Source: Verrucomicrobiota bacterium (GTDB lineage: Bacteria; Verrucomicrobiota; Verrucomicrobiia; Limisphaerales; JACDHS01). Taken from it: DNA of 64,000 nt. The notes below the pieces were generated by a model. The model ran no database searches. It was not told the DNA's origin and worked only from the letters and a program-made list of their open reading frames with translations. Where the stretch lies: the NCBI GenBank assembly GCA_013820875.1, contig JACDHS010000008.1:277-64276 (forward strand), written 5' to 3'. The translations under genes were made by a program, and so were the position numbers. This document shows, one piece after another, positions 9,176 through 25,228 of the stretch; the stretch's first letter is position 1; every line of letters starts with the position of its first letter.

Positions 9176-11470
9176 ATGTCGCCCCAATATTTTCGTGTCG
9201 CAAAGGTTTTCGCAGTCTTTGCCTTTGTTTTAGTTCACGGTTTCGTTGCTGCTGGCGCTTTTGGTGATCCTCGTGGTTTCCTGGTGAATCAACAGGTCTC
9301 CGAAACGGTTGTCTATCCGGGAGTCAAATACATCCGGGCCGATGGTTCTCACCTGGGGCTGCCCATGGTCACTCATGTTGTGACGGTTGATATGACCGAT
9401 CCCGGTGTGAAGCTCCAGATGCTACCGGGAGAACGCCTGGTCACAGCCTCTTCCGGCCAGTTCTTTCGCCGTTCACGGGTTTCCCATATGCAACAGGACA
9501 ACAACGCGCTCGTGGCGATCAACAGCGCCTTTTTCGACATCAGCGCCACCATGGCCCCGAGCGGGTTGCATGTGCGGGATGGCATGATGTTGCGTCAACC
9601 GGCGACCGGGAATCCGAGCTTTGCCGTGACTGAGGACGGCCTGGCTTTCATTAATAGTTTTGGGTGGAGCCGGAACGTCCGCTATGGGACAGGCACCGCT
9701 GCGTTGCAGGGTGTCAATAACAACATAATCGGCGACAACAACATAGCCTTGTATCAGTATCCATGGGACCGAAGTCCTGCGACCAATGCCGCATTCATCA
9801 ACGGGCGTGCGGTGACAGAAGTCGTGATCGGGAAAGTAGCTTTTACAAAATCGTCGGGCGGAACTCAGCGGCACCTGCTTCGAGGCAAGGTGTTGGAAGT
9901 TCGTAACAACAAAGGTTCTGTCGGGTTGAACGCCACCAATTATGTCCTGACTGCCACCGGGACATCTCGAAGTTTTTTGCAGCAGATGACCGTTGGTTCG
10001 ACGGTGGATGTGGATTGGCTACTGAGCAGTGTGCCGAGCGGCATCAATTGGAGTCGCATCAGCGAAGTGGTTTCCGGCAACAATCTTTTGATCGTCAATG
10101 GCGTTCTCCAGAACGGCAGCGGCAGTCATTGGGAATCGCGTCATCCGCGGAGTGTGGTCGGTATCAACGAGAGCCAAACCAAGGTGCTCTTTTTGTTGGT
10201 GGAAGGGCGTCAGAGTGGGCGGGCTGAAGGAATGAGCCTCGATAGTGTGCGCAATTATGTATCGCACATGGGTGTTTACAACTGTTTGGAACTCGATGGC
10301 GGTGGATCGTCTGCGATGGCTGGGCGTATCAATGGCAATAATGTGCTTCTCAGTACCCCGTCGGATGGTTCAGAGCGCTACGTCCCCTCGGGTCTCGGTG
10401 TGGTGGCTGTTCCCGAAATGGCCAATCCGTTTTTCCAAAACGTGCGTGTGAGCACTGGGCATGACATGGCGGCGATCAGTTGGGAAACGCCTGAGCCGGC
10501 AATCTCCTACTTGCTGTACGGCAAGGAGGGATATGACATCGAATCCATTCGGAACCAAGTGCCATCCAAAAGGCACACGATTTTTCTCTCCGGTCTGGAA
10601 TCTCATACGCTCTATTTCGCGCGAATGGCAGCGGAAACCGGTGCAGGAACACAAACGTCTCAGAGCCAGCAGTTCACCACCAGTTTCGAAGTGGTGGTGG
10701 ATGATGCCCAGGCCGCTTTCGACGGAACATGGAGCACTGGCGCATTTGAAGTTCCCTACGGCCCAAGCTACCGCTGGAGCAATGTGGACATCGCGAGCAG
10801 TCCAACGCGGACGGCGACGTTTCGCCCGAATCTTCCAGCCAGCGGTCACTACGATTTGTACGTGTGGTTTACGCCGGGAGGCAATCGCACGACCGAGGCG
10901 CGCTACGACATCAAAAACCAGGCAGGAACGCAGGTGTTGACGCAATCCCAGCGAACGGGTGGAAATAATTGGACACTGTTGGCCAGCAACATGGCCTTTG
11001 ATTCAGGAACAAACGGCTTCGCCAAAGTGCGCAATGACTCGACGGTGGGAACTGTCGTGATTGCGGACGCTTTCCGATGGGTGTTGAACAGCCCCGCGCC
11101 CATGCCACATGGAGAGGTGCCAACATGGTGGCGTGAACATTTCTTTGGGGTAAATGCTCCAGACGCTTCCACTGATGTGGATGAAGACGGTTATTCGATT
11201 TACGAGGAATACATTTGGGGAACGGTTCCCGATGACTCGACCTCTTCGCCGAGGACTATTTTCGAACAGACGCAAGGGGGTGGCTTCCAACTCACTTTCT
11301 CGCCAGTTCGCGCGGATCGAGTTTACCGAATCGAAGCCAGCACGGACCTGGATAGTTGGACAACATTCAATGTGCCTCTACAGGAAGTGAACGGACAGGG
11401 CATTGTTAATCTGCCGGTTGAATCCGGGTTGGGGCAACGGTATTATCGCCTCCGGGTCGCACTTCCGTAA
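9176..11470 (+). CDS. Secreted phosphodiester glycosidase (NAGPA-like) with Fn3-like and golvesin-like domains
   Basis: Signal peptide; VAINSAFFD, HPRSVVG, VEGRQ, LELDGGGSS motifs; later VVDDAQAAFDGTWSTG...YDLYVWFTPGGNR golvesin-like module. Confidence 0.85.
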   Translation: MSPQYFRVAKVFAVFAFVLVHGFVAAGAFGDPRGFLVNQQVSETVVYPGVKYIRADGSHLGLPMVTHVVTVDMTDPGVKLQMLPGERLVTASSGQFFRRSRVSHMQQDNNALVAINSAFFDISATMAPSGLHVRDGMMLRQPATGNPSFAVTEDGLAFINSFGWSRNVRYGTGTAALQGVNNNIIGDNNIALYQYPWDRSPATNAAFINGRAVTEVVIGKVAFTKSSGGTQRHLLRGKVLEVRNNKGSVGLNATNYVLTATGTSRSFLQQMTVGSTVDVDWLLSSVPSGINWSRISEVVSGNNLLIVNGVLQNGSGSHWESRHPRSVVGINESQTKVLFLLVEGRQSGRAEGMSLDSVRNYVSHMGVYNCLELDGGGSSAMAGRINGNNVLLSTPSDGSERYVPSGLGVVAVPEMANPFFQNVRVSTGHDMAAISWETPEPAISYLLYGKEGYDIESIRNQVPSKRHTIFLSGLESHTLYFARMAAETGAGTQTSQSQQFTTSFEVVVDDAQAAFDGTWSTGAFEVPYGPSYRWSNVDIASSPTRTATFRPNLPASGHYDLYVWFTPGGNRTTEARYDIKNQAGTQVLTQSQRTGGNNWTLLASNMAFDSGTNGFAKVRNDSTVGTVVIADAFRWVLNSPAPMPHGEVPTWWREHFFGVNAPDASTDVDEDGYSIYEEYIWGTVPDDSTSSPRTIFEQTQGGGFQLTFSPVRADRVYRIEASTDLDSWTTFNVPLQEVNGQGIVNLPVESGLGQRYYRLRVALP

Positions 11471-13038: not shown

Positions 13039-13076
13039 CTGCAACTGGAGCGGTTTGTCCCGGTGACGGGAGACTT

Positions 13077-13117
13077 AATCATGTGGCAGAACATCGCGTC
13101 GCGCAGTTTCGGTTCAA
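13077..13117 (-). repeat. Displaced copy of the DUF1015 3' end (att-like)
   Basis: AATCATGTGGCAGAACATCGCGTCGCGCAGTTTCGGTTCAA encodes EPKLRDAMFCHMI on the minus strand, identical in protein to the end of 24014-25228. Confidence 0.9.
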
Positions 13118-13126
13118 TAAAGAGGT

Positions 13127-13243
13127 CGGGGAGACCGGCGGGAGCCGATCTTCAAGGATGACGCGGATCATCGTTGTTTTCTCAAGACGCTGGGAGAAGC
13201 GTGCCTGCAAACGGATTGACAGGTGCATGCCTTCTGCCTGATG
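13127..13243 (+). pseudogene. Relic of a REP-associated tyrosine transposase (RAYT, Y1/HUH family)
   Basis: Reads RGDRREPIFKDDADHRCFLKTLGEACLQTD*QVHAFCLM, matching the RG..R..IF.DD.D...FL..L.....W..HAYCLM.NH.H N-terminus; TGA at the conserved Trp position; breaks off before the HUH motif. Confidence 0.8.
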
Positions 13244-13310: not shown

Positions 13311-13418
13311 ATGACCGCCATCGCCGTCGAATTGGATCAAAAACTTCAAAGCCTGGATCCGGAAACGGCTGCGTCCGTCGAGCGGTTGGTGCGCGACGCA
13401 TTGCAACTGGCGGAAAAG
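13311..13418 (+). pseudogene. 5' half of a small antitoxin-like gene interrupted by an insertion
   Basis: MTAIAVELDQKLQSLDPETAASVERLVRDALQLAEK; its last 40 bp (13379-13418) recur exactly at 17020-17059. Confidence 0.55.
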
Positions 13419-16938: not shown

Positions 16939-17019
16939 GAATACCTGAAACGTGACGGAGAGCGTCGAGCCATCCGCACACGCCGCCGGCTGAATTCCTC
17001 GAAGCCGTTAGGGGTCACC

Positions 17020-17128
17020 CGAGCGGTTGGTGCGCGACGCATTGCAACTGGCGGAAAAGAAGGCAACAGCCGTTCAAAATCCTGCCGCGATTTCCGTCCA
17101 TCAGTCTCACATCGCGACAAACTTCTAA
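17020..17128 (+). pseudogene. 3' half of the small interrupted gene (see 13311)
   Basis: Starts with the duplicated 40 bp and reads ERLVRDALQLAEKKATAVQNPAAISVHQSHIATNF*. Confidence 0.5.
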
Positions 17129-17214
17129 ACGCCATTTGCGCACGCTTTGGAGACGCTTTCGTTCGTTTTACTGTTGTTGAACCGGAGGGAAATCCGGAAT
17201 TCCCGAAGAAGCAA

Positions 17215-17272
17215 AACCACGGATGGACACAGATAAAACCCTGCTCTTCTGAATCTGTGTCCATCTGTGGTT
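17215..17272. repeat. Palindromic REP-like element (CCACGGATGGACACAGAT type)
   Basis: AACCACGGATGGACACAGAT...ATCTGTGTCCATCTGTGGTT inverted pair. Confidence 0.75.
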
Positions 17273-17292
17273 TCTCAATTCCTAAAATTCTG

Positions 17293-17374
17293 CCCTTTGG
17301 GATTCGGGAACGACGACGGGCGCGCAAACGGACGGCGCTTTGACTTCACGAAAAGGTAAAGCGGGCTTTGAAAA
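17293..17374 (+). repeat. Cassette-boundary repeat R1 (~80 bp)
   Basis: CCCTTTGGGATTCGGGAACGACGACGGGCGCGCAAACGGACGGCGCTTTGACTTCACGAAAAGGTAAAGCGGGCTTTG. Confidence 0.95.
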
Positions 17375-17432
17375 TGGAGCTTCGTCAAATCTGCCGTTGA
17401 TTCATGGCGCAATGACGTTAAAATGACGTGTC

Positions 17433-17690
17433 ATGAAAACGCTTCCCAAGATGGAGATTAACGACGATCTCGAAGCCCAAATCGCTCAAGGGATGGAAAT
17501 CTCGGATTTGTGCAAAGCCGACGTCATTCGACAGGCGTTGAAGATTGGCCTGCCGCAGTTTGCCGCGCGTTTTCAGCCCGCTCCGCTTTGGTTGGAGGAA
17601 CGCATCCGCGAAGCTCTCGCGGAACCCGCCGAGCCTGTGACCCCGTCCCAATTTGACCGAACCATGAAAGCCATCGCCGATGGCCGCTAA
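17433..17690 (+). CDS. Putative antitoxin (RHH-like N-terminus)
   Basis: 85 aa, KADVIRQALKIGL helix pattern, overlaps the downstream toxin start; TTGATT-N17-TAAAAT-like promoter upstream. Confidence 0.7.
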   Translation: MKTLPKMEINDDLEAQIAQGMEISDLCKADVIRQALKIGLPQFAARFQPAPLWLEERIREALAEPAEPVTPSQFDRTMKAIADGR

Positions 17691-18011
17691 ACTGGTTGTC
17701 CATCCGCATTCTATCGCCGCGTGCGTCATTACCGCGACCGCATCGGTATTCAAGACGCCCGCTCCCAAACTGCGATCCGGTTTGTTCGCGCTGTGCGCGA
17801 TCTGGTGCCCCGACTGTTGGAAAATCCGGGGCGCGGCCATCCGGCGCGTTTTGAAGCACTGGATCTGGCTGACATCCTTCGGGTTTCCGTGCCGGGCTTT
17901 GCCGTGTTCGCCCTCTTCTATCGTTGGGACGGAGAAACTCTCACGGTGATCACTTTGGAGCACACCGCCCAGGATTTGCCATCTCGTCTCGCCGCCGTTC
18001 TTGAGAAATAG
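17680..18011 (+). pseudogene. RelE/ParE-family toxin with a 1-bp frameshift
   Basis: ATG 17680 frame gives MAAKLVVHPH; the body (VRHYRD...LLENPGRGHP...FALFYRWDGETLTVITLEHTAQDL) is offset by one base near 17708. Confidence 0.75.
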
Positions 18012-18032
18012 CACGAAAGAAAAGAACAGAAT

Positions 18033-18115
18033 CCCTTTTGGATTCGGGAACGACGACGCGCGCGCAAACGGTCGGCGCATTGACTTCACGAAAATGTAAT
18101 GCGGGCTTTGGAAAA
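18033..18115 (+). repeat. Cassette-boundary repeat R2
   Basis: CCCTTTTGGATTCGGGAACGACGACGCGCGCGCAAACGGTCGGCGCATTGACTTCACGAAAATGTAATGCGGGCTTTGGAAAA. Confidence 0.95.
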
Positions 18116-18137
18116 CGCACGATTGACTGGCGTTTTA

Positions 18138-18291
18138 TGGAGTGCGGTGGCAGAGCGCAGCGGCGACACCGCTTTGGGTTGGCGTGGACCGCCGGGGAAA
18201 TCTCTCCGCTGCAAAACATCTCACGCTCTTTCCCCCCGGCTCCGCCGTTTCCCAAAGCGCCGTCGCCGCTGCGCTCTGCCGGCGCACTCCA
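18138..18291. repeat. REP doublet (REPIN-like)
   Basis: TGGAGTGCGGTGGCAGAGCGCAGCGGCGACACCGCTTTGGG...CCCAAAGCGCCGTCGCCGCTGCGCTCTGCCGGCGCACTCCA; a related doublet lies at 38964-39089. Confidence 0.85.
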
Positions 18292-18305
18292 AATACGCAC
18301 CACCC

Positions 18306-18388
18306 CACTTTGGGGTTCGGGAACGACGACGGGCGCGCAAGCGGACGGCGCTTTGACTTCACGAAAAGGTAAAGCGGGCTTTGGAAAA
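18306..18388 (+). repeat. Cassette-boundary repeat R3
   Basis: CACTTTGGGGTTCGGGAACGACGACGGGCGCGCAAGCGGACGGCGCTTTGACTTCACGAAAAGGTAAAGCGGGCTTTGGAAAA. Confidence 0.95.
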
Positions 18389-18403
18389 CGCTTGTTTCGA
18401 TTC

Positions 18404-18709
18404 TTAATCTTTTCTTTTGCTCAGTTCCTTACGAATCCAATTTGGTTCTCTTCGCAAATCCAACACGGCCAGGACCTGCGTCTCCGTTGCAGTTTCCCGA
18501 TAGTAAATGCCGAATGGAAACCGGTCAGCCAGTCGCCTGAAGAAACCAAAATGGCGGGAGTGAATTCCGTGATAAAGCGCCAAACTTTCAATGTCAGCCA
18601 CCAATGAGTCAGCGCAGTAATCTCCGATGCCGGGCTCTTGAGCGTCGTAGAAGTCACGCGCCTGCTCGATATCTGCGGCGGCTTCGGCCAGAACCACGAC
18701 TCTTCTCAT
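18404..18709 (-). CDS. RelE/ParE-family toxin
   Basis: VVVLAEAAADIEQARDFY...FPFGIYY...VLAVLDLRREP pattern; ATGA overlap with the antitoxin. Confidence 0.88.
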   Translation of the reverse strand: MRRVVVLAEAAADIEQARDFYDAQEPGIGDYCADSLVADIESLALYHGIHSRHFGFFRRLADRFPFGIYYRETATETQVLAVLDLRREPNWIRKELSKRKD

Positions 18710-18924
18710 GGTTTGCGTTTAGCGAGACGTTTTTTCAGTTGCGCTAGCGTTAGAAATTCACCCCGCCCTGCTGCAACTTTGGCCATGCGCTGATCGAGAA
18801 TCTTTTTGTGCCAGGCGGGCGATTCCACTTTGTCCGGAGTGCGAGCCATCGAACGCCAGAGTAATTCCATGGCCTGAAGTCGTTCAGTGGCACTCATCCG
18901 TTCAATTTCGCCTGCTCCAATCAT
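18706..18924 (-). CDS. Addiction-module antitoxin component
   Basis: ERLQAMELLWRSM...SPAWHKKILDQR pattern; coupled to the ParE toxin. Confidence 0.85.
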   Translation of the reverse strand: MIGAGEIERMSATERLQAMELLWRSMARTPDKVESPAWHKKILDQRMAKVAAGRGEFLTLAQLKKRLAKRKP

Positions 18925-18980
18925 GCTGCAAAATTACTTCCTCCTTTTGCGAGCGGCAAGCCAATCGCTCGACGAATTCA

Positions 18981-19053
18981 GATTCAGGAACGACGACGGG
19001 CGGGTAAACGGACGGCGCTTTGACTTCACGAAAATGTAAGCGGGCTTGGGAAA
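18981..19053 (+). repeat. Cassette-boundary repeat R4
   Basis: GATTCAGGAACGACGACGGGCGGGTAAACGGACGGCGCTTTGACTTCACGAAAATGTAAGCGGGCTTGGGAAA. Confidence 0.93.
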
Positions 19054-19100
19054 TGGAGACTGATGTTGCAACCCAACCTCCAGAATCGTAACTTCCGGCT

Positions 19101-19319
19101 ATGAGCTATCTAACGGTTGAAGTCGAAATCGACCACGGGCGCGTTTCAGCCAAAGGCGCGGAAACATTGCCGGAGAAAGCATCCGGCTTGCTCACGATTC
19201 TAAATCCTCCCGCCCTTTCCCAGCCACGTCCCATCGGTTTGGCCAAAGGTCAATTTACTGTGCCGGAGGATTTCAACGCGCCGCTGCCGGAAGACGTGTT
19301 GCGAACGTTTGAAGGCTAA
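19101..19319 (+). CDS. VapB-like antitoxin
   Basis: C-terminal RPIGLAKGQFTVPEDFNAPLPEDVLRTFEG typical of PIN-associated antitoxins; TAATG overlap with the toxin. Confidence 0.85.
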   Translation: MSYLTVEVEIDHGRVSAKGAETLPEKASGLLTILNPPALSQPRPIGLAKGQFTVPEDFNAPLPEDVLRTFEG

Positions 19320-19702
19320 TGAGGATTCTGCTCGATACCTGCGAGTTCCTCTGGCTCGTCTCCGGCGACGCAAAATTGTCATCATATGTCGCCTCGGCGG
19401 TTCGCGACCCGCAAAATCAGGTTTTTCTCAGCGTGGTTTCGTTTTGGGAAATTTCCATCAAACACGCCATCGGCAAACTTCCGTTGCCGCAGCCACCTTC
19501 TATCTTTGTGCCGCAGCAACGCGACAAACATTTGATCATGCCAATGGCATTGGATGAAGCCGCCGTCTCGCAATTGAGCGGCCTACCGACTCTGCATCGC
19601 GATCCGTTCGACCGCATGTTAGTTTGCCAGGCGCAAGCGCACGGTCTGATGTTCGCTTCATCCGATCCACTCATCAAACAGTATCCGGTTACGCTGCTTT
19701 AA
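19319..19702 (+). CDS. vapC: VapC-family PIN-domain toxin
   Basis: MRILLDT, SVVSFWEISIK and HRDPFDRMLVCQA motifs. Confidence 0.93.
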   Translation: MRILLDTCEFLWLVSGDAKLSSYVASAVRDPQNQVFLSVVSFWEISIKHAIGKLPLPQPPSIFVPQQRDKHLIMPMALDEAAVSQLSGLPTLHRDPFDRMLVCQAQAHGLMFASSDPLIKQYPVTLL

Positions 19703-19713
19703 GGGCAGTTACA

Positions 19714-19792
19714 CCCTTTGGGACCCGGGAACGACGACGGGCGCACAAACGGTCGGCAAATTGACTTTACGAAAATGTAAAGCGGGCTTTGG
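19714..19792 (+). repeat. Cassette-boundary repeat R5
   Basis: CCCTTTGGGACCCGGGAACGACGACGGGCGCACAAACGGTCGGCAAATTGACTTTACGAAAATGTAAAGCGGGCTTTGG. Confidence 0.93.
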
Positions 19793-19834
19793 CTTTGCGT
19801 TTCCAAAAATATTCGTAAGAATGGCTCAAAATTT

Positions 19835-20545
19835 ATGGGCCTTTTCGACTTCTTTCGCAAACCAAAGTCTGAACTCGACTCGTTGACGGAGGAATGGAAC
19901 CAGCGATTATTTCCTGGCGGCAAACAAGAGATACTCTATGGAGCAAAAATTGTCGTCCAAATCAGCAATGGAAAATTGAGTGAGATAGAAGCTGCAAAAG
20001 TTTTTGCGATGGCGAAGTCACGATACACGCTCGCATCAACTGCATTCAATGGGACAACAAAATTGGGGCCAAAACTGGAGGAGATGTCGGCGTGAACAAT
20101 AGCCGATTCTGAGGACAAATTAAGCGCTCCAGAGGCGGCCCGAATTATCTACTACGTGATGTTTTGTAAGGTTGATTCTTCGCTGGAAACTCCCATTACA
20201 ATCAAAAATTTTCTCGAAGGAGGATTCGGTTCTGATTCTTTTGGTTGTGCCTCTGACGAAATCCCCTCTGCAATTGGAGAGTTCGGATTTGATCCAACTA
20301 ACCCGATTCCAGTTCGCGGCATTGTTTCCAGTAACATTTATTTGGAACGGCTGCTTACAAGCGAAGGGAAGAAAGTTGACTATAAGCGAAATGGTTCGCT
20401 GATTGTTCCCAACATCTCCGGTAACATTGACGAATACGAAATTAGTCAGAATGGTCGTCCGTTGTGTAAATTGTATATCAGTCCCTACAACCAGCGAATT
20501 TCAGGACGACCGCCGCGTGGTTTTATTCTTTTTCAGGAAGATTAG
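19835..20545 (+). pseudogene. AT-rich hypothetical gene split by one in-frame TGA
   Basis: ORFs 19835-20095 and 20156-20545 share a frame, with only TGA 20093-20095 between them; C-terminal GEFGFDPTNPIPV...YLERL...YKRNGS...NIDEY block looks like a conserved domain. Confidence 0.65.
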
Positions 20546-20593
20546 GCTAAATGCCGTTACAACTCAGCAGGAGGCTGAAAACCCAAATCAATC

Positions 20594-21223
20594 ATGTTTA
20601 ACTTTTTCAAAAAGGATTTGAGCGAAATTAGCGACACCAAATATCAGATGCTGGCTATGCTTGTTCTTTCCAACACGACAGGTTCGGCGATGGCGTTGGC
20701 GGCAAGTTCCCCTAAACGCGATCCGAAGACTGCGTATTTCGTTATTCTTGAGACGTTGGCCTTCGCAACGTGTCTGGTGGAAATGTGTGCCCAACGGAAG
20801 TTCAAATTCACGGATGGGCATCAAGCTCTTGCCATGATCCAAACTTTGCAAAAACACTATGGGAAATTTTCAAAAATGGGCGAAATCAAAATCGAAGATG
20901 GCACTTTCGATCCTTCCCTATTTGAGGGTGCTGCTTCCGATGAGTTTCTCGAACGGGTGTTGTTTTATGCCGCTCGTGATTATCAGGGCTTGGGCATTAC
21001 CGAAGAAATGTTCGATGAATTTTGCAAAGCGACTGGCCAATACGCTCGATTGCTAAAGAATTCCGACCTGAATATGGCAACCGCGATGTACCAAGCAACA
21101 ATTTTTGGAGTGCTCGGCGATCAAGTGACAAACGAATATTACAATTTTCTCCTGCAGAACACGGATGAGATTAAAGATCGTTTGGTTAAGAAAATTGAGC
21201 GCCTCTTCAAGCAAGATATCTGA
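20594..21223 (+). CDS. AT-rich hypothetical protein
   Basis: 209-aa open frame starting MFNFFKK; no family recognised. Confidence 0.7.
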   Translation: MFNFFKKDLSEISDTKYQMLAMLVLSNTTGSAMALAASSPKRDPKTAYFVILETLAFATCLVEMCAQRKFKFTDGHQALAMIQTLQKHYGKFSKMGEIKIEDGTFDPSLFEGAASDEFLERVLFYAARDYQGLGITEEMFDEFCKATGQYARLLKNSDLNMATAMYQATIFGVLGDQVTNEYYNFLLQNTDEIKDRLVKKIERLFKQDI

Positions 21224-21276
21224 ACAATCCCAAACAAAATGACGTTTCTGGTCTCTCGATAAATCACGAAAGCTTG

Positions 21277-21972
21277 TCAATGTATCTCCGCTTGAAACTC
21301 GAAGCAACCGTTTGGGTCCATCACAACAAATTTATCGAGATCGTGTGATTCAATTACGATTTTTGTAAACCACTTTGGCTTTTTCCAAAACCACACACAG
21401 TCTCCGCGAAGAGTCTCTGACCTCCAGAGAAGTTCTGCTTTACATAGAGACAATGTATCCACAAGAACAAGCCAAGTCTCGTCGTAATGGAAAAAGTTGC
21501 TGGCATTCAACCTTTGGGTTTTGGTGACAATTATTTCCTTAGCTTTTTTGAGCCAGTAATCATCTTGTTGGTCGGCTGTATAACCTTGGAAAAACTGAGA
21601 GTTCAGAGCGCTTTGATTCTTTAATTCTTGGGAACTGTTTCCACTCTCAACCAAATAAGGCGTTGAATCGAAAGGTCGCTTTGCGTGAACCCTTCGCTCT
21701 TCGAGTCGGGGATTAGCAATCCTCGACGCTTCGATTCCAATTGTTCGCCCAGCCATTCGCAATTTGAAATCAGGATTTATTTCTGTGGTGTGGGTAATCT
21801 CCAAAGGAAAAGCGTGCATGTTTTCTGAAGCAGCGAATAGAAACTTATTGATCTGCAATCTTTCACAACGAAGTCTGTTCGGCAACTTGTTGGCCAAACA
21901 ACAGTCTGCTTTCAGTTTAGTAAGCAATTCATCGAGGGAATCAGCGGTTAAATACGGTTTTGGATCATTCAT
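21277..21972 (-). CDS. Hypothetical protein, possible PD-(D/E)xK nuclease fold
   Basis: AT-rich 231-aa ORF containing NPDFKL...IGIEASR. Confidence 0.55.
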   Translation of the reverse strand: MNDPKPYLTADSLDELLTKLKADCCLANKLPNRLRCERLQINKFLFAASENMHAFPLEITHTTEINPDFKLRMAGRTIGIEASRIANPRLEERRVHAKRPFDSTPYLVESGNSSQELKNQSALNSQFFQGYTADQQDDYWLKKAKEIIVTKTQRLNASNFFHYDETWLVLVDTLSLCKAELLWRSETLRGDCVWFWKKPKWFTKIVIESHDLDKFVVMDPNGCFEFQAEIH

Positions 21973-22327
21973 AGTTCGGAATCTTTCAATATCTCCCAAG
22001 CCAGAAGTTCTTTCACCAAACTCTGAATTGAGTCAGATGGTCCGTCAGGGAGGCAAGGGAGTGTGAGCAAAGTGGGTGCCACGAATTTTGACCACCTAAC
22101 TGGAAGATTTAAGCCGATGAAGTCAATTATCGAATAGCGCTGATAGAATCGGTTACAAATTAACCTCTTCAGCTCTGCCTTATGAATTAAGAGGCATCAC
22201 CTAAACAGTAAGTTTGTAAGAGCTACTTTCCCCATTCTTCCCTCCCTTTTTTTGAGGGTTTCGTATCAGCCGTTTTTCATCCGAACGACCGGAACCTTGA
22301 CTGTCAAAGTGCGGGCCAACGCCAGGC

Positions 22328-22513
22328 CTATTCTTCGAGCACCGCCAGAATTTCCATTCGCACCTGGTGATAGGGTTCCGATTGCCGTTCGAAATCGGTG
22401 ATCGTTCGCGCGATTCGGCGGGTGATCTCATCGGCTCGCTCGGGATTCCGTTTCGCCAGCGAGGTGAGCAGCGCATGGTCGATGACGCCTTCACGGAACG
22501 AAACCATTCGCAT
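22328..22513 (-). CDS. Small hypothetical protein divergent from the wHTH gene
   Basis: C-terminal 61 codons of track ORF 22328-22846 look helical; start uncertain. Confidence 0.35.
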   Translation of the reverse strand: MRMVSFREGVIDHALLTSLAKRNPERADEITRRIARTITDFERQSEPYHQVRMEILAVLEE

Positions 22514-22670
22514 GGACGGAATGAACGCATGCCGTTTCAATGTGGGGGCTCTGCCGCATAAATGCGGCGTTCCGGGCGCGCGGAGGAACGCCGCCTTCAG
22601 GTGCCTTCGGGCGGCAGTATCGGCGTCTTCCGAGCTTGCGGAAATGAGATACGATTTAGAAGATGCCCGC

Positions 22671-23024
22671 ATGGCCCAGGAACATTCGCCTAAAACAATT
22701 CCGCTCAAGGTTCGCCGATGGAAGACGGATGACGTGTTTCTCATGTTGAAGGATCCATTCAGGCAACAGATCCTGCGGTCGCTCGCAAACGGCGAAGCGA
22801 AAACGGGGATGGAACTGAACGCCGCTTCAGGACGGACACGCCACACCTACCTCAAACACCTGACGGCGCTGTGTAAGGTCGGACTCCTGGTTAAAAAGGA
22901 GAACCAAAATGATCGTCGACTACTTCTTTACGGTTTGGCTCCAGGCGTCAGCGTGTGTAACACGGACGATGGCATGACGATGGACTTCGGTTGCTGCATG
23001 CTGCGGTTTGCCCAATTGAAATAG
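22671..23024 (+). CDS. Winged helix-turn-helix (ArsR/MarR-like) DNA-binding protein
   Basis: LKDPFRQQILRSLANGEAKTGMELNAASGRTRHTYLKHLTALCKVGLL...DRRLLLY pattern. Confidence 0.75.
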   Translation: MAQEHSPKTIPLKVRRWKTDDVFLMLKDPFRQQILRSLANGEAKTGMELNAASGRTRHTYLKHLTALCKVGLLVKKENQNDRRLLLYGLAPGVSVCNTDDGMTMDFGCCMLRFAQLK

Positions 23025-23200
23025 GGCCAGGATAGCAGCATTTCACGGATAAACAGTTCGGGCGCTTTCTGCCGCCAGAAATGCGGCGGCACTTTGGGTT
23101 CACCCGCTGTTGCACGGAATTGTTTTCAGCAAAGGTTGGGCGAACCGAAATCCGGGGCGCTCCGAGGGCTTGCAAGCTAGGTAAACCCGTTTTCGTCCCA

Positions 23201-23520
23201 TTTTGCTGAAAAATAAGTTAACGAACACCTGCGCTAACCCTTCTTTCCGGAAGAAAAAGTTAACGACCTCATGTGATGAAGGATCTTTATGGAAAGAAAA
23301 GTTAACGAATGGCCTGCCGAAGGTTGGTTTATGGAAAAATTAGTTAACGATCACACACAACGAGTGCCTTTTCCGGAAGAAAAAGTTAACAAATGCATGC
23401 GAGAACCCATTATTCCGGAAATAAAAGTTAACGACGGCATGTGATGAAGGATCTTTACGGAAACAAAAGTTAACGATGGCATGTGATGAAGGATCTTTAC
23501 GGAAACGAAAGTTAACGAAA
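23201..23520. repeat. 42-bp-period array: 8 GTTAAC-centred conserved motifs with 19-bp variable linkers
   Basis: GTTAAC at 23217, 23259, 23301, 23343, 23385, 23427, 23469, 23511; conserved TTT(C/A)(C/T)GGAA-N-AAAGTTAACGA. Confidence 0.95.
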
Positions 23521-23760
23521 TTTCTGTTTAGAGACTTTTGGAGGGCGGAAAAGCGCCGAAATCCATGTATTCGGCGGTTTTTTTGTCAGGAATTGACGTG
23601 AAATGTGTGTTTACGAGTTTTTGCAGTGTGTTTTGGCGGTGCTTTTCGGGTTAGTGGGCTTTCGTTGGAATGATCTCAAATCCGGCAGTTCAATACCGCT
23701 AATCTACGCTAATGACCGCTAATCAGAGGGGGGATTGCGAAGAAGGCCGATTGAAAAGCC

Positions 23761-23851: not shown

Positions 23852-24013
23852 TTGAATTGAAAATGGAAACGAAGCCGCCATTCCGCGCCGGAGAAGTAAT
23901 GCATCCTGGCGCAAGTTCCACCCCGTTGTTGGTAATCCATTGTTCCTGTCATCAATGGTGATCTGCTGGGCACACGCGTAAGGACGACGTTTATGGAGTG
24001 CCTTTTTTCCAGG

Positions 24014-25228
24014 CTAAATCATGTGGCAGAACATTGCGTCGCGCAGTTTGGGTTCAAACCAGGTGCTTTTAGGCGGCATGATTCCACCGGCGTCGGAGAT
24101 GCTCATTAAATCTTCGATGCTCGTGGGGAACATGGAAAACGCGCAGGCGTAATCGCCGTTGTTCACCAGTTTTTCCAACTCGGCTGTTCCGCGGATGCCA
24201 CCGACGAAGTTGATGCGCTTGCTCGTGCGCGGATCATCGATGCCAAAGATCGGGTCGAGGACATGTTTTTGCAGGAGCGTGACGTCGAGTTGCTCGATCG
24301 GATCCGTTGTGGTGGCGAATTCCGGGCGGAAATGGAGCGTGTGCCATTGGCCTTTGATGAAGAGTCCGAGTTCGTGTTTGCGCGTCGGTTTGGCAGCGCC
24401 GTTCGGCTGGATGATGAAAACGGCATCAAGTTTCTCGAGCACCTGTTCGACTGTAAGCCCATTCAAATCTTTCAGGACGCGGTTGTAGGGCAGAATCTGC
24501 ATTTGGTTGTGTGGAAAAATCACCGTCAGGAATGAGCCGCTGTTCCCGGCTCCTTTGCGGGATTGATACACCCGGCCTGCGGCAGCACTGCGATGATGTC
24601 CATCGGCAATGTAGAGGAATGGGATCTTCTGAAATTCACTTTCAATCTGCGCAATCATCTCAGGTTCGTTTACCACCCAGGCGGTGTGGCGGACGCCATC
24701 CGGCGCGGTGAGATCCATGTTTGGCATCTCTGCGGTTTTCCTGGTTGCCAGTTCATTGAGCGCATCCACTGCACGATAGGTGAGAAAGACCGGGCCGGTT
24801 TGTGAATTCAACGCTTCAATGTGGCGAACGCGATCATCCTCTTTATCCGGGCGCGTGAATTCGTGCTTCTTGATGATGTCGTTCAGGTAATCTTCGCAAC
24901 TCGCGGCGGCGACCAGGCCGATCTGGCTGTGGTTGCCCATGATCTGGCGGTAGAAATAGAAGCAGGCTGTTTCGTCCTGGCGCAGGGCGCCTTGTTGAAT
25001 CAGGCGATCGAAGTTTTCTTTGCCTTTGGCATAAACTTCGGGCGAGTGAACATCCGTTCCAGCAGGCAGATCGATTTCCGGTTTGCTGACGTGCAGAAAG
25101 CTGAGTGGATTATCTTTAGCCATATCGCGGGCTTCCTCGGATGACATGACATCATAAGGGAGTTCGCAGATTTTATCGGCCAATTCAGGTTTGGGGCGGA
25201 GCGCGGGGAACGGTTTAATAATCGCCAT
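24014..25228 (-). CDS. DUF1015 family protein
   Basis: MAIIKPFPALRP, ELPYDV, HEFTRPDKEDDR, YIADGHHRSAAA, MPPKSTWFEPKLR motifs. Confidence 0.93.
   Translation of the reverse strand: MAIIKPFPALRPKPELADKICELPYDVMSSEEARDMAKDNPLSFLHVSKPEIDLPAGTDVHSPEVYAKGKENFDRLIQQGALRQDETACFYFYRQIMGNHSQIGLVAAASCEDYLNDIIKKHEFTRPDKEDDRVRHIEALNSQTGPVFLTYRAVDALNELATRKTAEMPNMDLTAPDGVRHTAWVVNEPEMIAQIESEFQKIPFLYIADGHHRSAAAGRVYQSRKGAGNSGSFLTVIFPHNQMQILPYNRVLKDLNGLTVEQVLEKLDAVFIIQPNGAAKPTRKHELGLFIKGQWHTLHFRPEFATTTDPIEQLDVTLLQKHVLDPIFGIDDPRTSKRINFVGGIRGTAELEKLVNNGDYACAFSMFPTSIEDLMSISDAGGIMPPKSTWFEPKLRDAMFCHMI

What the first reader, a model, noticed from the sequence alone, without database searches (positions are those of the whole stretch)
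17293..19792. Integron-like cassette array with non-attC ~80-bp repeats separating toxin-antitoxin and REP cassettes
Seen: five direct repeats (R1-R5) delimit four cassettes: an antitoxin/ParE pair (+), a bare REP doublet, an addiction-module/ParE pair (-) and VapBC (+). AT-rich orphan genes follow R5. Each cassette is tightly trimmed to the repeats. Established: integron attC sites need RYYYAAC/GTTRRRY boxes and a long palindrome, which these repeats lack, and no IntI is present. Inference: a distinct tandem-accretion platform that stockpiles TA modules (defence or addiction) by repeated insertion at one target.
Basis: partly seen in the sequence, partly recalled or inferred. Interest (0 to 1): 0.88.

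Follow-up and report, generated by a model that had tools for sequence, protein, structure and literature searches.

The report
Repeat-led toxin-antitoxin cassette array, not integron
Five copies of an ~85-base non-palindromic sequence separate small toxin-antitoxin modules in a Verrucomicrobiota chromosome; the same sequence joins other addiction and defence genes in other genomes, so it looks like a cassette system that is not an integron and whose enzyme is unknown.

Summary
Five direct copies of an ~85-nt element (R; 75-96% pairwise identity) delimit an antitoxin/ParE pair, a bare REP doublet, a reverse-oriented PF09720-antitoxin/ParE-like pair and VapBC. AT-rich orphan genes follow. R is not an attC site: it has no RYYYAAC/GTTRRRY boxes and no hairpin (fold z about 0, against -4 for a real attC control), no consensus fold over 22 copies and no Rfam hit. 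R is not a genome-wide REP: five array copies plus two partial copies elsewhere. No intact integron integrase was found in the genome.

R recurs in one other Verrucomicrobiales MAG and 13 metagenome contigs. There it joins HicAB, ParE/RelE pairs, an Mrr nuclease, a PADLOC candidate defence gene and orphans. Four modules recur between genomes with different neighbours. A solo R+TA unit sits between def and rpoN, where two relatives have 36-66 nt and no R.

Best reading: units of [R + cargo] accumulate head to tail by recombination at R. The enzyme is unidentified; this genome shows only two XerC/D-like tyrosine recombinases. Site-specific and homologous exchange cannot be separated. The array is decaying: ParE is frameshifted and a REP has invaded. 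I class it as a new variant of cassette/accretion arrays, of moderate to high interest.

The parts
16939..17290 (.). Left spacer between the TlpA-like gene and R1. Synteny with four relatives ends at about 17007. The spacer holds the right copy of a perfect 40-nt direct repeat (17020-17059) and a 21-bp-stem hairpin (17214-17273).
17291..17382 (+). R1, junction repeat copy 1
17397..17424 (+). Sigma-70-like promoter of cassette 1 (TTGATT-16-TAAAAT); it lies outside R
17433..17690 (+). Cassette 1 antitoxin-like gene (85 aa, no Pfam family). 592 database proteins matched at E<=0.001, and the 120 best listed are 76-94% identical. A ParE gene follows it in the contexts read.
17680..18011 (+). Cassette 1 ParE toxin gene, broken by a 1-nt deletion near 17704; the PF05016 part is 17721-18011
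18031..18121 (+). R2
18138..18291 (.). REP doublet (inverted 63-nt arms) of a genome-wide REP family; it is the only content of 'cassette 2'
18304..18396 (+). R3
18404..18709 (-). Cassette 3 toxin, 101 aa, ParE/RelE-like by context and by homologous cassettes (no Pfam hit)
18706..18924 (-). Cassette 3 antitoxin, PF09720 / TIGR02574
18971..19060 (+). R4, whose left ~12 nt are atypical
19101..19319 (+). Cassette 4 VapB-like antitoxin (weak NF050009 match)
19319..19702 (+). Cassette 4 VapC, PIN domain
19712..19798 (+). R5
19835..21999 (.). Unit 5: four AT-rich orphan ORFs (19835-20095, 20156-20545, 20594-21223 on +; 21277-21999 on -). The right end of the unit is not defined.

Best explanation
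The locus is an accretion array of small addiction/defence units. Each unit carries one copy of a portable, double-stranded, non-palindromic ~85-nt sequence (R) at its left end. A unit is [R + cargo]. Cargo is mostly a type II toxin-antitoxin pair in either orientation; elsewhere it is a nuclease, a candidate defence gene or orphan genes.

Units join head to tail by recombination at R, so every internal junction is a full R. Units also occur singly, inserted just after the stop codon of a housekeeping gene.

Shown: the repeats and cassettes; the non-attC nature of R; its rarity in the genome; its presence at several loci in two genomes and in 13 metagenome contigs; sharp edges of R on both sides; reuse of the same modules with different neighbours; and one occupied-versus-empty site.

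Inferred: that units move as [R + cargo], probably as circles; that insertion happens at R; and which enzyme acts. No recombinase is encoded nearby. The genome shows only two XerC/D-like tyrosine recombinases plus fragments of an IntI-type N-terminal domain. The array here is therefore either served in trans by host functions (Xer or RecA-type exchange between R copies) or is a fossil. It is visibly decaying: ParE is frameshifted, a REP has invaded, and R4 and R5 have diverged.
For: Repeats and cassettes.

Not attC:
- No RYYYAAC/GTTRRRY box in any copy.
- Single-strand fold z between -1.3 and +0.8 on both strands, against -4.1/-3.9 for attC of aadA1.
- Alifold on 22 copies gives -2.4/-4.0 kcal/mol.
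- No Rfam match at E<=1.

Rarity and spread:
- Seven copies in the 5.7-Mb genome, five of them in the array.
- Present in 1 of 60 related genomes besides the window's own: G003, of another genus. Absent from the same-genus genome G001.
- G003 is the only genome outside the window's own that was hit in the species-representative collection.
- 13 metagenome contigs carry it, with arrays of 2-3 copies spaced 280-730 bp.

Module reassortment:
- Cassette 1 is 89% identical in L051 behind a different left neighbour.
- REP+R3 is 87% identical in L048 and is followed there by a PDC-M02B gene.
- The PF09720/ParE-like cassette of G003 contig 365 is 82.5% identical to the middle cassette of L054, with other neighbours.
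- R plus a downstream module is shared by L055 and L058 with unrelated upstream DNA.
- The same upstream hairpin module has three different downstream modules.

Cargo: HicAB, DUF2513, Mrr_cat, MBL-fold protein, IS110 fragment.

Empty site: def-rpoN is 862 nt with R+TA in G000, against 36 and 66 nt without R in L074/L075 and L073. R lies within about 30 nt of the def stop codon.

Not a cassette promoter: no sigma-70 match inside R, and cargo points either way.

Recombinase census.
Against: - No recombinase is linked to any R copy in about 100 kb of R-bearing contigs.
- Most R-bearing contigs are short, so their organisms are unknown. Part of the 'reassortment' could be differential deletion from one old array.
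- No half-site marks either end of the window array.
- Variable sites in R fail the four-gamete test all along the repeat, with no single breakpoint. This fits homologous exchange or gene conversion better than one fixed crossover point.
- The same antitoxin/ParE pair sits in other genomes between other direct repeats: a 30-nt tRNA-Gly tail in L070, a 56-nt repeat in L066 and a different 65-125-nt repeat in L063-65. It also occurs without any repeat in L067. The repeat sequence itself may therefore be incidental.
Confidence: 0.5

Rival explanations
1. Graveyard of tandem integrative elements. R is the att site of a family of integrase-bearing islands that integrated repeatedly side by side. 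Deletions removed everything except the toxin-antitoxin modules, which resist loss, and the att copies.
For: In L070 the same antitoxin/ParE pair is the only content of a 785-bp insert flanked by a 30-nt duplication of the 3' end of tRNA-Gly(CCC), the classic integrase scar. The window also has a 47-nt repeat of the DUF1015 3' end bracketing 10.9 kb, and a perfect 40-nt repeat bracketing 3.6 kb, both without an integrase. Decay is visible.
Against: None of the 33 R matches found (29 distinct sequences) lies next to an integrase or a larger element. Cassettes are trimmed to within 10-55 nt of the genes again and again. A 190-nt REP-only interval lies between two full R copies in two genomes, with two different REP families. 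The solo unit at def-rpoN has a single R and no second att copy.
Confidence: 0.2
2. Homology-driven stacking with no dedicated site. R is a passive piece of DNA, a former target or flank, that hitch-hikes with cargo. Circles or linear DNA carrying R integrate by RecA-type crossover into a resident R (Campbell-type), which duplicates R each time. This relates to the 'insertion with long target duplication' described for restriction-modification genes.
For: Four-gamete failures occur all along R. R has no structure, no boxes and no linked enzyme. Different repeat families do the same job in other genomes. Furuta et al. 2010 (PMC2853133) report 30-400-bp direct repeats around selfish gene units without mobility genes. 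Earlier scan notes describe similar 'scars'.
Against: In that literature the repeat is a unique local target found once in the empty site. Here R is absent from the empty def-rpoN sites and recurs at many loci. About 85 nt is short for efficient RecA exchange. R keeps sharp edges and a nearly invariant 29-nt core (TTGACTTCACGAAAATGTAAAGCGGGCTT) across genera, which suggests selection on the sequence.
Confidence: 0.2
3. R is a cis-acting functional element (insulator, terminator plus promoter, small RNA or operator) that such modules need. It is repeated because each module brings its own copy; recombination plays no part.
For: The right half of R is nearly invariant. It often lies 40-55 nt upstream of co-oriented cargo (cassettes 1 and 4, unit 5, L048, L053, L058). 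A weak inverted partial copy lies upstream of the reverse TA pair at def-rpoN (E=0.01 in 745 nt).
Against: R has no sigma-70 match, no fold and no Rfam family. Six of about 15 cargos point the other way. Cassette 1 has its own promoter outside R. One interval holds only a REP. The suggested coding tail (FGIRERRRARKRTAL*) belongs to no gene, and two copies carry an in-frame stop.
Confidence: 0.07
4. Assembly artefact: the order of cassettes is a chimera made by joining reads through an 85-nt repeat in a metagenome bin.
For: The Logan assembly of the same run breaks inside R1, inside the REP and inside R3.
Against: That independent assembly reproduces R1(part)-cassette 1-R2-REP and R3(part)-cassette 3-R4-cassette 4-R5-unit 5 at 100% identity. 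R is shorter than a read, and similar arrays exist in other samples.
Confidence: 0.03

Closest known systems
Sedentary chromosomal integron arrays and CALINs (attC clusters without integrase)
   Same: Row of small, mostly promoter-independent cassettes, rich in toxin-antitoxin pairs, separated by one repeat family in one orientation. Cassettes are reused in other arrays. No integrase sits next to the array.
   Different: R has no R''/R' boxes, no imperfect palindrome and no single-strand hairpin. By the L055/L058 pair and the solo unit, the conserved repeat goes with the cargo on its right rather than ending the cassette on its left. No intact IntI was found in the genome, only three copies of an N-terminal SAM-like fragment and a 29-aa C-terminal match.
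dif (pdif) modules of Acinetobacter plasmids and other Xer-dependent integrating elements
   Same: Small modules, often toxin-antitoxin pairs, bounded by recombination sites used by host XerC/D, with no enzyme in the module. Here XerC/D-like proteins are the only tyrosine recombinases detected in the genome.
   Different: pdif sites are 28 bp (11-6-11) and alternate in orientation. R is ~85 nt, always direct, and shows no convincing 11-6-11 site.
Site-specific accretion of integrative elements and cis-mobilizable elements (CIMEs), as in streptococcal ICEs/IMEs
   Same: Tandem units separated by att copies. Units lacking their own integrase could be moved in trans.
   Different: Units here are 0.27-0.74 kb, with one of at least 2.2 kb, against tens of kb. 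No element with an integrase is known for R, and no half-sites were found at the array ends.
Insertion with long target duplication (Nobusato/Furuta/Kobayashi; PMC2853133)
   Same: Selfish addiction-type gene units flanked by 30-400-bp direct repeats with no mobility gene. The window also holds two such pairs (47 nt and 40 nt).
   Different: In that case the repeat is a unique local target present once in the empty site. R is absent from the empty site tested and is shared by many loci and genomes.
REP/BIME elements
   Same: Short non-coding repeats in intergenic DNA. A true REP doublet fills one interval.
   Different: R is not palindromic. It has 7 copies rather than tens to hundreds, and 5 of them are clustered in one direction.

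Membership tests
Integron / CALIN | attC site with R'' (RYYYAAC) and R' (GTTRRRY) boxes | tested here: not met
   No such box in any of R1-R5 on either strand, and no box pair 40-130 nt apart anywhere in 17000-20000
Integron / CALIN | attC folds as an imperfect hairpin on one strand | tested here: not met
   DNA fold z from -1.3 to +0.8 for 10 strands. Alifold on 22 copies gives -2.4/-4.0 kcal/mol. Control attC of aadA1 gives z=-4.1/-3.9.
Integron / CALIN | IntI integrase with attI and Pc next to the array (complete integron only) | tested here: not met
   None in the window. Genome-wide, only two XerC/D-like proteins, three PF13495-only fragments and one 29-aa C-terminal match.
   IntegronFinder and its attC model are not available. 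Box, fold and Rfam tests were used instead.
Xer-dependent modules (pdif / IMEX) | 28-bp site: 11-bp XerC arm, 6-bp centre, 11-bp XerD arm, partly palindromic | tested here: inconclusive
   No fit found by eye in R. Canonical dif patterns give only scattered hits in the genome, and the host dif is unknown.
Xer-dependent modules (pdif / IMEX) | Sites alternate in orientation around modules | tested here: not met
   All five copies, and all copies in other arrays, are direct
Insertion with long target duplication | The repeat equals a single-copy sequence of the empty site | tested here: not met
   Empty def-rpoN sites in L073-L075 have no R at E<=10. The main locus could not be tested because synteny ends at about 17007 in all relatives.
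REP / BIME | Palindromic unit dispersed genome-wide | tested here: not met
   7 copies, no palindrome. By contrast the 18138-18291 doublet arm has 22 hits on 16 contigs.
Tandem integrative elements / CIME | An integrase-bearing member of the family using the same att | tested here: not met
   No integrase next to any of the 33 R matches found. The sample is limited to short contigs.
Type II toxin-antitoxin modules (the cargo) | Adjacent small antitoxin and toxin genes with family domains | tested here: met
   PF05016, PF09720/TIGR02574 and PF01850. ParE is frameshifted. The cassette 3 toxin and VapB are assigned by context only.

The most novel reading that the evidence does not exclude
R is the recognition site of an undescribed gene-cassette capture system of Verrucomicrobiota. 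It would work on double-stranded, non-palindromic ~85-nt sites with an unlinked enzyme. It would be one member of a wide and so far unrecognised class of non-integron platforms that stockpile toxin-antitoxin and defence genes: a different repeat family does the same in L063-65, and unchecked scan notes report look-alike arrays in other phyla.
Probability: 0.25. Interest if true: 0.85.

Novelty: new variant of a known kind. Interest (0 to 1): 0.62.

Why it matters
Integrons are the only well-understood system that files single genes into ordered chromosomal arrays. Here the same layout, with the same kind of cargo (addiction and defence modules), is built on a repeat that fails every defining test of an attC site, in a phylum where mobile elements are poorly known. 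If an enzyme acts on R, it would be a new site-specific tool and a new route of defence-gene exchange. If none does, the array is a clear case of selfish modules stacking by homology alone. That would bear on how toxin-antitoxin islands and defence islands form in general. The occupied/empty def-rpoN pair and the modules shared between genomes make the question testable.

Tried and rejected
- attC/integron: boxes, folds and Rfam all negative.
- Sigma-70 promoter inside R: none.
- R as the 3' tail of a gene (another first-reader note): the frame ending FGIRERRRARKRTAL* belongs to no gene. The 135-codon open frame before R1 is Arg-rich junk running through a REP hairpin, and some copies have in-frame stops.
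- dif-like site: nothing convincing.
- IS110 link: the fragment next to R in L057 has no relative in G000.
- RAYT: only 17-40-aa relics in G000.
- Serine recombinase and Tn3, IS1, IS3 and IS4 seeds from R100: no hits. IS21- and IS66-like ORFs exist but are unlinked to R.
- Homology of R to the L063 repeat, to the 40-nt and 47-nt repeats or to the tRNA-Gly tail: not above shuffles.
- Half-sites at the array ends: none.
- Empty site for the main locus: synteny ends at about 17007 in G001, G002, G004 and G005, and the right flank lies on another contig in G001.
- G003 versus G000 empty sites: no synteny.
- Protein search with a spurious ORF that spans R, to fish for more copies: no candidates.
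- Strain variants: the exact proteins occur only in this one sample.
- Fixed crossover point: the four-gamete test is uninformative or against it.
Full report
**What is there.** The window is contig C126:277-64276 of a 5.7-Mb, 99%-complete Verrucomicrobiota MAG. It corresponds to GCA_020064125.1, sample SRR11719875. Its nearest named relatives are 'Verrucomicrobiales' and 'Limisphaerales' MAGs.

Five direct repeats lie at 17295-17374, 18035-18114, 18308-18387, 18975-19054 and 19716-19795, with start-to-start spacing of 740, 273, 667 and 741 nt. Aligned with copies from elsewhere, the conserved block runs for about 85-90 nt, from CCCTTTGGG to GGAAATGG. Its 29-nt core, TTGACTTCACGAAAATGTAAAGCGGGCTT, is almost invariant. 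Pairwise identity is 75-96%. I call the element R.

**The cassettes.**
- Cassette 1 has its own sigma-70-like promoter outside R (17397-17424), an 85-aa antitoxin-like gene and ParE.
- ParE carries a 1-nt deletion near 17704 compared with the intact 110-111-aa gene in L051, L066 and L067, so the toxin is broken.
- Interval 2 holds only a REP doublet. Its arm has 22 hits on 16 contigs of the genome.
- Cassette 3 is on the minus strand. It pairs a PF09720 antitoxin with a 101-aa toxin that has no Pfam hit. The same pair type recurs next to R at three other places.
- Cassette 4 is a weak VapB match plus a PIN protein.
- After R5 come four ORFs with no hit in four libraries, at 42-46% GC.

An independent Logan assembly of the same run reproduces 17341-18283 and 18354-23704 exactly.

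**What R is not.**
- It is not an attC site. No copy contains RYYYAAC or GTTRRRY on either strand.
- Single-strand DNA folds of both strands of all five copies give z from -1.3 to +0.8. The attC of aadA1 from plasmid R100, folded the same way, gives -4.1 and -3.9.
- Alifold on 22 copies finds no consensus structure.
- Rfam gives nothing, even at E<=1.
- It is not a genome-wide REP. The genome has the five array copies plus two partial ones, at C130:13497-13582 and C34:14104-14142.
- It is not a sigma-70 promoter, and cargo points either way.
- It is not a gene tail. The frame that another first-reader note read as 'the last 20 codons of a protein' belongs to no gene in any context, and some copies carry an in-frame stop.

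**Where else R occurs.** Among 60 related genomes, only G003 has it, on four contigs. G003 is of the same family but another genus, and is an uncultured Verrucomicrobiales MAG (CALJZV01). The same-genus genome G001 has none. A pattern scan of the species-representative genome collection hit only G003. A scan of JGI/ENA metagenome contigs hit 13 contigs.

An nhmmer profile finds 33 matches in all, giving 29 distinct sequences. These include arrays of two or three copies spaced 280-730 bp in L054, L055, L049, L048 and L026/L047.

Cargo next to R includes:
- HicAB;
- the PF09720/ParE-like pair;
- DUF2513;
- an Mrr-type nuclease;
- an MBL-fold protein;
- a PADLOC candidate defence protein (PDC-M02B, E=4e-114);
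- an IS110 transposase fragment;
- orphan ORFs.

**Evidence that the units reassort.**
1. Window cassette 1 is 89% identical to L051:932-1347. There it follows a half R and a REP, with a different left neighbour.
2. REP+R3 is 87% identical to L048:2289-2035. There the next unit is the PDC-M02B gene, not cassette 3.
3. The TA cassette between the two R copies of G003 contig 365 is 82.5% identical to the middle cassette of L054. It has R on both sides in both, but different neighbours.
4. L055 and L058 share one R variant plus about 190 nt downstream. Their upstream DNA is unrelated right up to AAACCTTTGGG. In L058 the shared block ends in a ~15-nt look-alike of the left end of R.
5. One upstream hairpin module precedes R in L054, L057 and L049, with three different downstream modules.

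R therefore has sharp edges on both sides, and the DNA on either side assorts independently.

**An occupied and an empty site.** In G000, contig C130 carries R followed by a reverse-oriented, decayed PF09720/ParE-like pair, between the convergent genes def and rpoN. That spacer is 862 nt. In two relatives whose def proteins are 83% and 78% identical, the spacer is 36 nt (L074/L075) and 66 nt (L073), with no R at E<=10. R starts about 30 nt after the def stop codon, at the left edge of the insert, and there is no second full copy. Together with point 4, this says a unit is [R + cargo to its right]. The window then has five units for five repeats.

**Mechanism: what can and cannot be said.** No recombinase lies near any R copy.
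- In G000, a motif search, an iterated profile search and IntI1, resolvase and transposase seeds from R100 find only two XerC/D-like tyrosine recombinases (C127:6287-7282 and C198:42737-43714).
- They also find three ~95%-identical copies of an ORF that is only the N-terminal SAM-like domain of an IntI-type integrase (PF13495). Each copy is followed by a 41-bp tandem array.
- One 29-aa C-terminal match and unlinked IS21- and IS66-like ORFs complete the list.
- No serine recombinase, no IS110 and no intact RAYT were found.
- I could not fit a dif-type 11-6-11 site into R.
- Common variable sites in R fail the four-gamete test all along its length. This leans towards exchange anywhere within R (homologous recombination or conversion), or recurrent mutation, rather than one fixed crossover.
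- No half-sites mark the array ends.

Accretion of [R + cargo] units by recombination at R is thus supported by anatomy and comparison. Whether the exchange is site-specific or homologous is open, and so is whether it still happens in this genome.

**A wider pattern.** The cassette 1 antitoxin matched 592 database proteins at E<=0.001. The 120 best listed are 76-94% identical, and a ParE gene follows it in the contexts read. Its surroundings differ from genome to genome:
- In L070 it is the only content of a 785-bp insert flanked by a 30-nt duplication of the tRNA-Gly(CCC) 3' end.
- In L066 it lies inside a 56-nt direct-repeat pair and is followed by the left half of R.
- In L063-L065 it is one of about eight TA cassettes in a 9-kb array punctuated by seven copies of a different 65-125-nt direct repeat. 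That repeat does not fold and is not alignable to R above chance.
- In L067 it has no flanking repeat.

The window itself holds a 47-nt repeat of the DUF1015 3' end bracketing 10.9 kb, and a perfect 40-nt repeat bracketing the MBL-Ig and TlpA genes, again without an integrase.

The nearest published observation is 'insertion with long target duplication' of restriction-modification units (PMC2853133). There, however, the repeat is a unique local target, which R is not. Earlier notes of this scan, all unchecked, describe many look-alike arrays in other phyla with varied explanations. I use them as leads only.

**Verdict.** This is a non-integron, repeat-punctuated array of addiction modules with real evidence of modular reuse across genomes. 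'One target' and 'a distinct platform' are not shown, the enzyme is unknown, and this copy is decaying. I rate it a new variant of cassette/accretion arrays, with interest 0.62.

Noticed in passing
window 13071-13117 and 24011-24057: A 47-nt direct repeat (91% identical) that copies the 3' end of the DUF1015 gene. It brackets the whole 10.9-kb variable region, including the R array. No integrase lies inside.
   Followed up: partly
window 13379-13418 and 17020-17059: A perfect 40-nt direct repeat brackets the MBL-Ig and TlpA-like genes and splits a small ORF that starts at 13311. Synteny with relatives ends about 13 nt before the right copy. Its similarity to R is not above chance.
   Followed up: partly
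window 23201-23518 (after the wHTH gene at 22644-23024): About eight 42-bp tandem units with GTTAAC cores follow a small winged-helix gene, which has a weak Csa3-type HTH hit. Arrays with a 42-43-bp period lie downstream of the TlpA gene in G001, G002 and G004 too.
   Followed up: partly
G000 C220:38436-39240, C69:1616-2500, C56:34736-33870: Three ~95%-identical copies of a ~0.9-kb unit. Each has an ORF that is only the N-terminal SAM-like domain of an IntI-type integrase (44% identical to IntI1 residues 15-87; PF13495), followed by a 41-bp tandem array. A 29-aa match to the IntI1 C-terminus lies at C237:1589-1675.
   Followed up: partly
window 17680-17721: ParE of cassette 1 is frameshifted by a 1-nt deletion compared with intact copies elsewhere, while the antitoxin is intact.
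   Followed up: yes
L063:6300-14100 (= L064, L065): A 9-kb array of about eight TA cassettes (PIN, Phd/YefM, BrnT, ParE, DUF1016 nuclease, DUF5615/DUF433) is punctuated by seven direct copies of another 65-125-nt repeat with no significant fold. The structure is identical in three samples.
   Followed up: partly
L070:9899-9928 and 10714-10743: A 785-bp insert holding only the antitoxin/ParE pair is flanked by a 30-nt duplication of the 3' end of tRNA-Gly(CCC).
   Followed up: yes
window 13127-13243: Relic of a REP-associated tyrosine transposase (RAYT), with TGA where the family has Trp. Only 17-40-aa fragments of this family exist in the genome (C120, C81, C5).
   Followed up: partly
L038 (G001:C82) 9940-10024 and 10434-10518: At the locus downstream of TlpA, the sister species has its own 85-nt direct-repeat pair (98% identical) containing a terminator-like hairpin. 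The pair brackets one 136-aa membrane ORF.
   Followed up: partly
L026:1993-2190 and window 18122-18303: In two genera, a ~190-nt interval between two full R copies is filled only by a REP, and the REP family differs between the two.
   Followed up: partly
G000 C130:14149-14184 (minus strand): A weak inverted partial copy of the R core (CTTCACGAAAAG...GCGGGCGTT) lies upstream of the reverse TA pair in the solo unit. It scores E=0.01 in a 745-nt search, and 11 of 500 shuffles did as well.
   Followed up: partly
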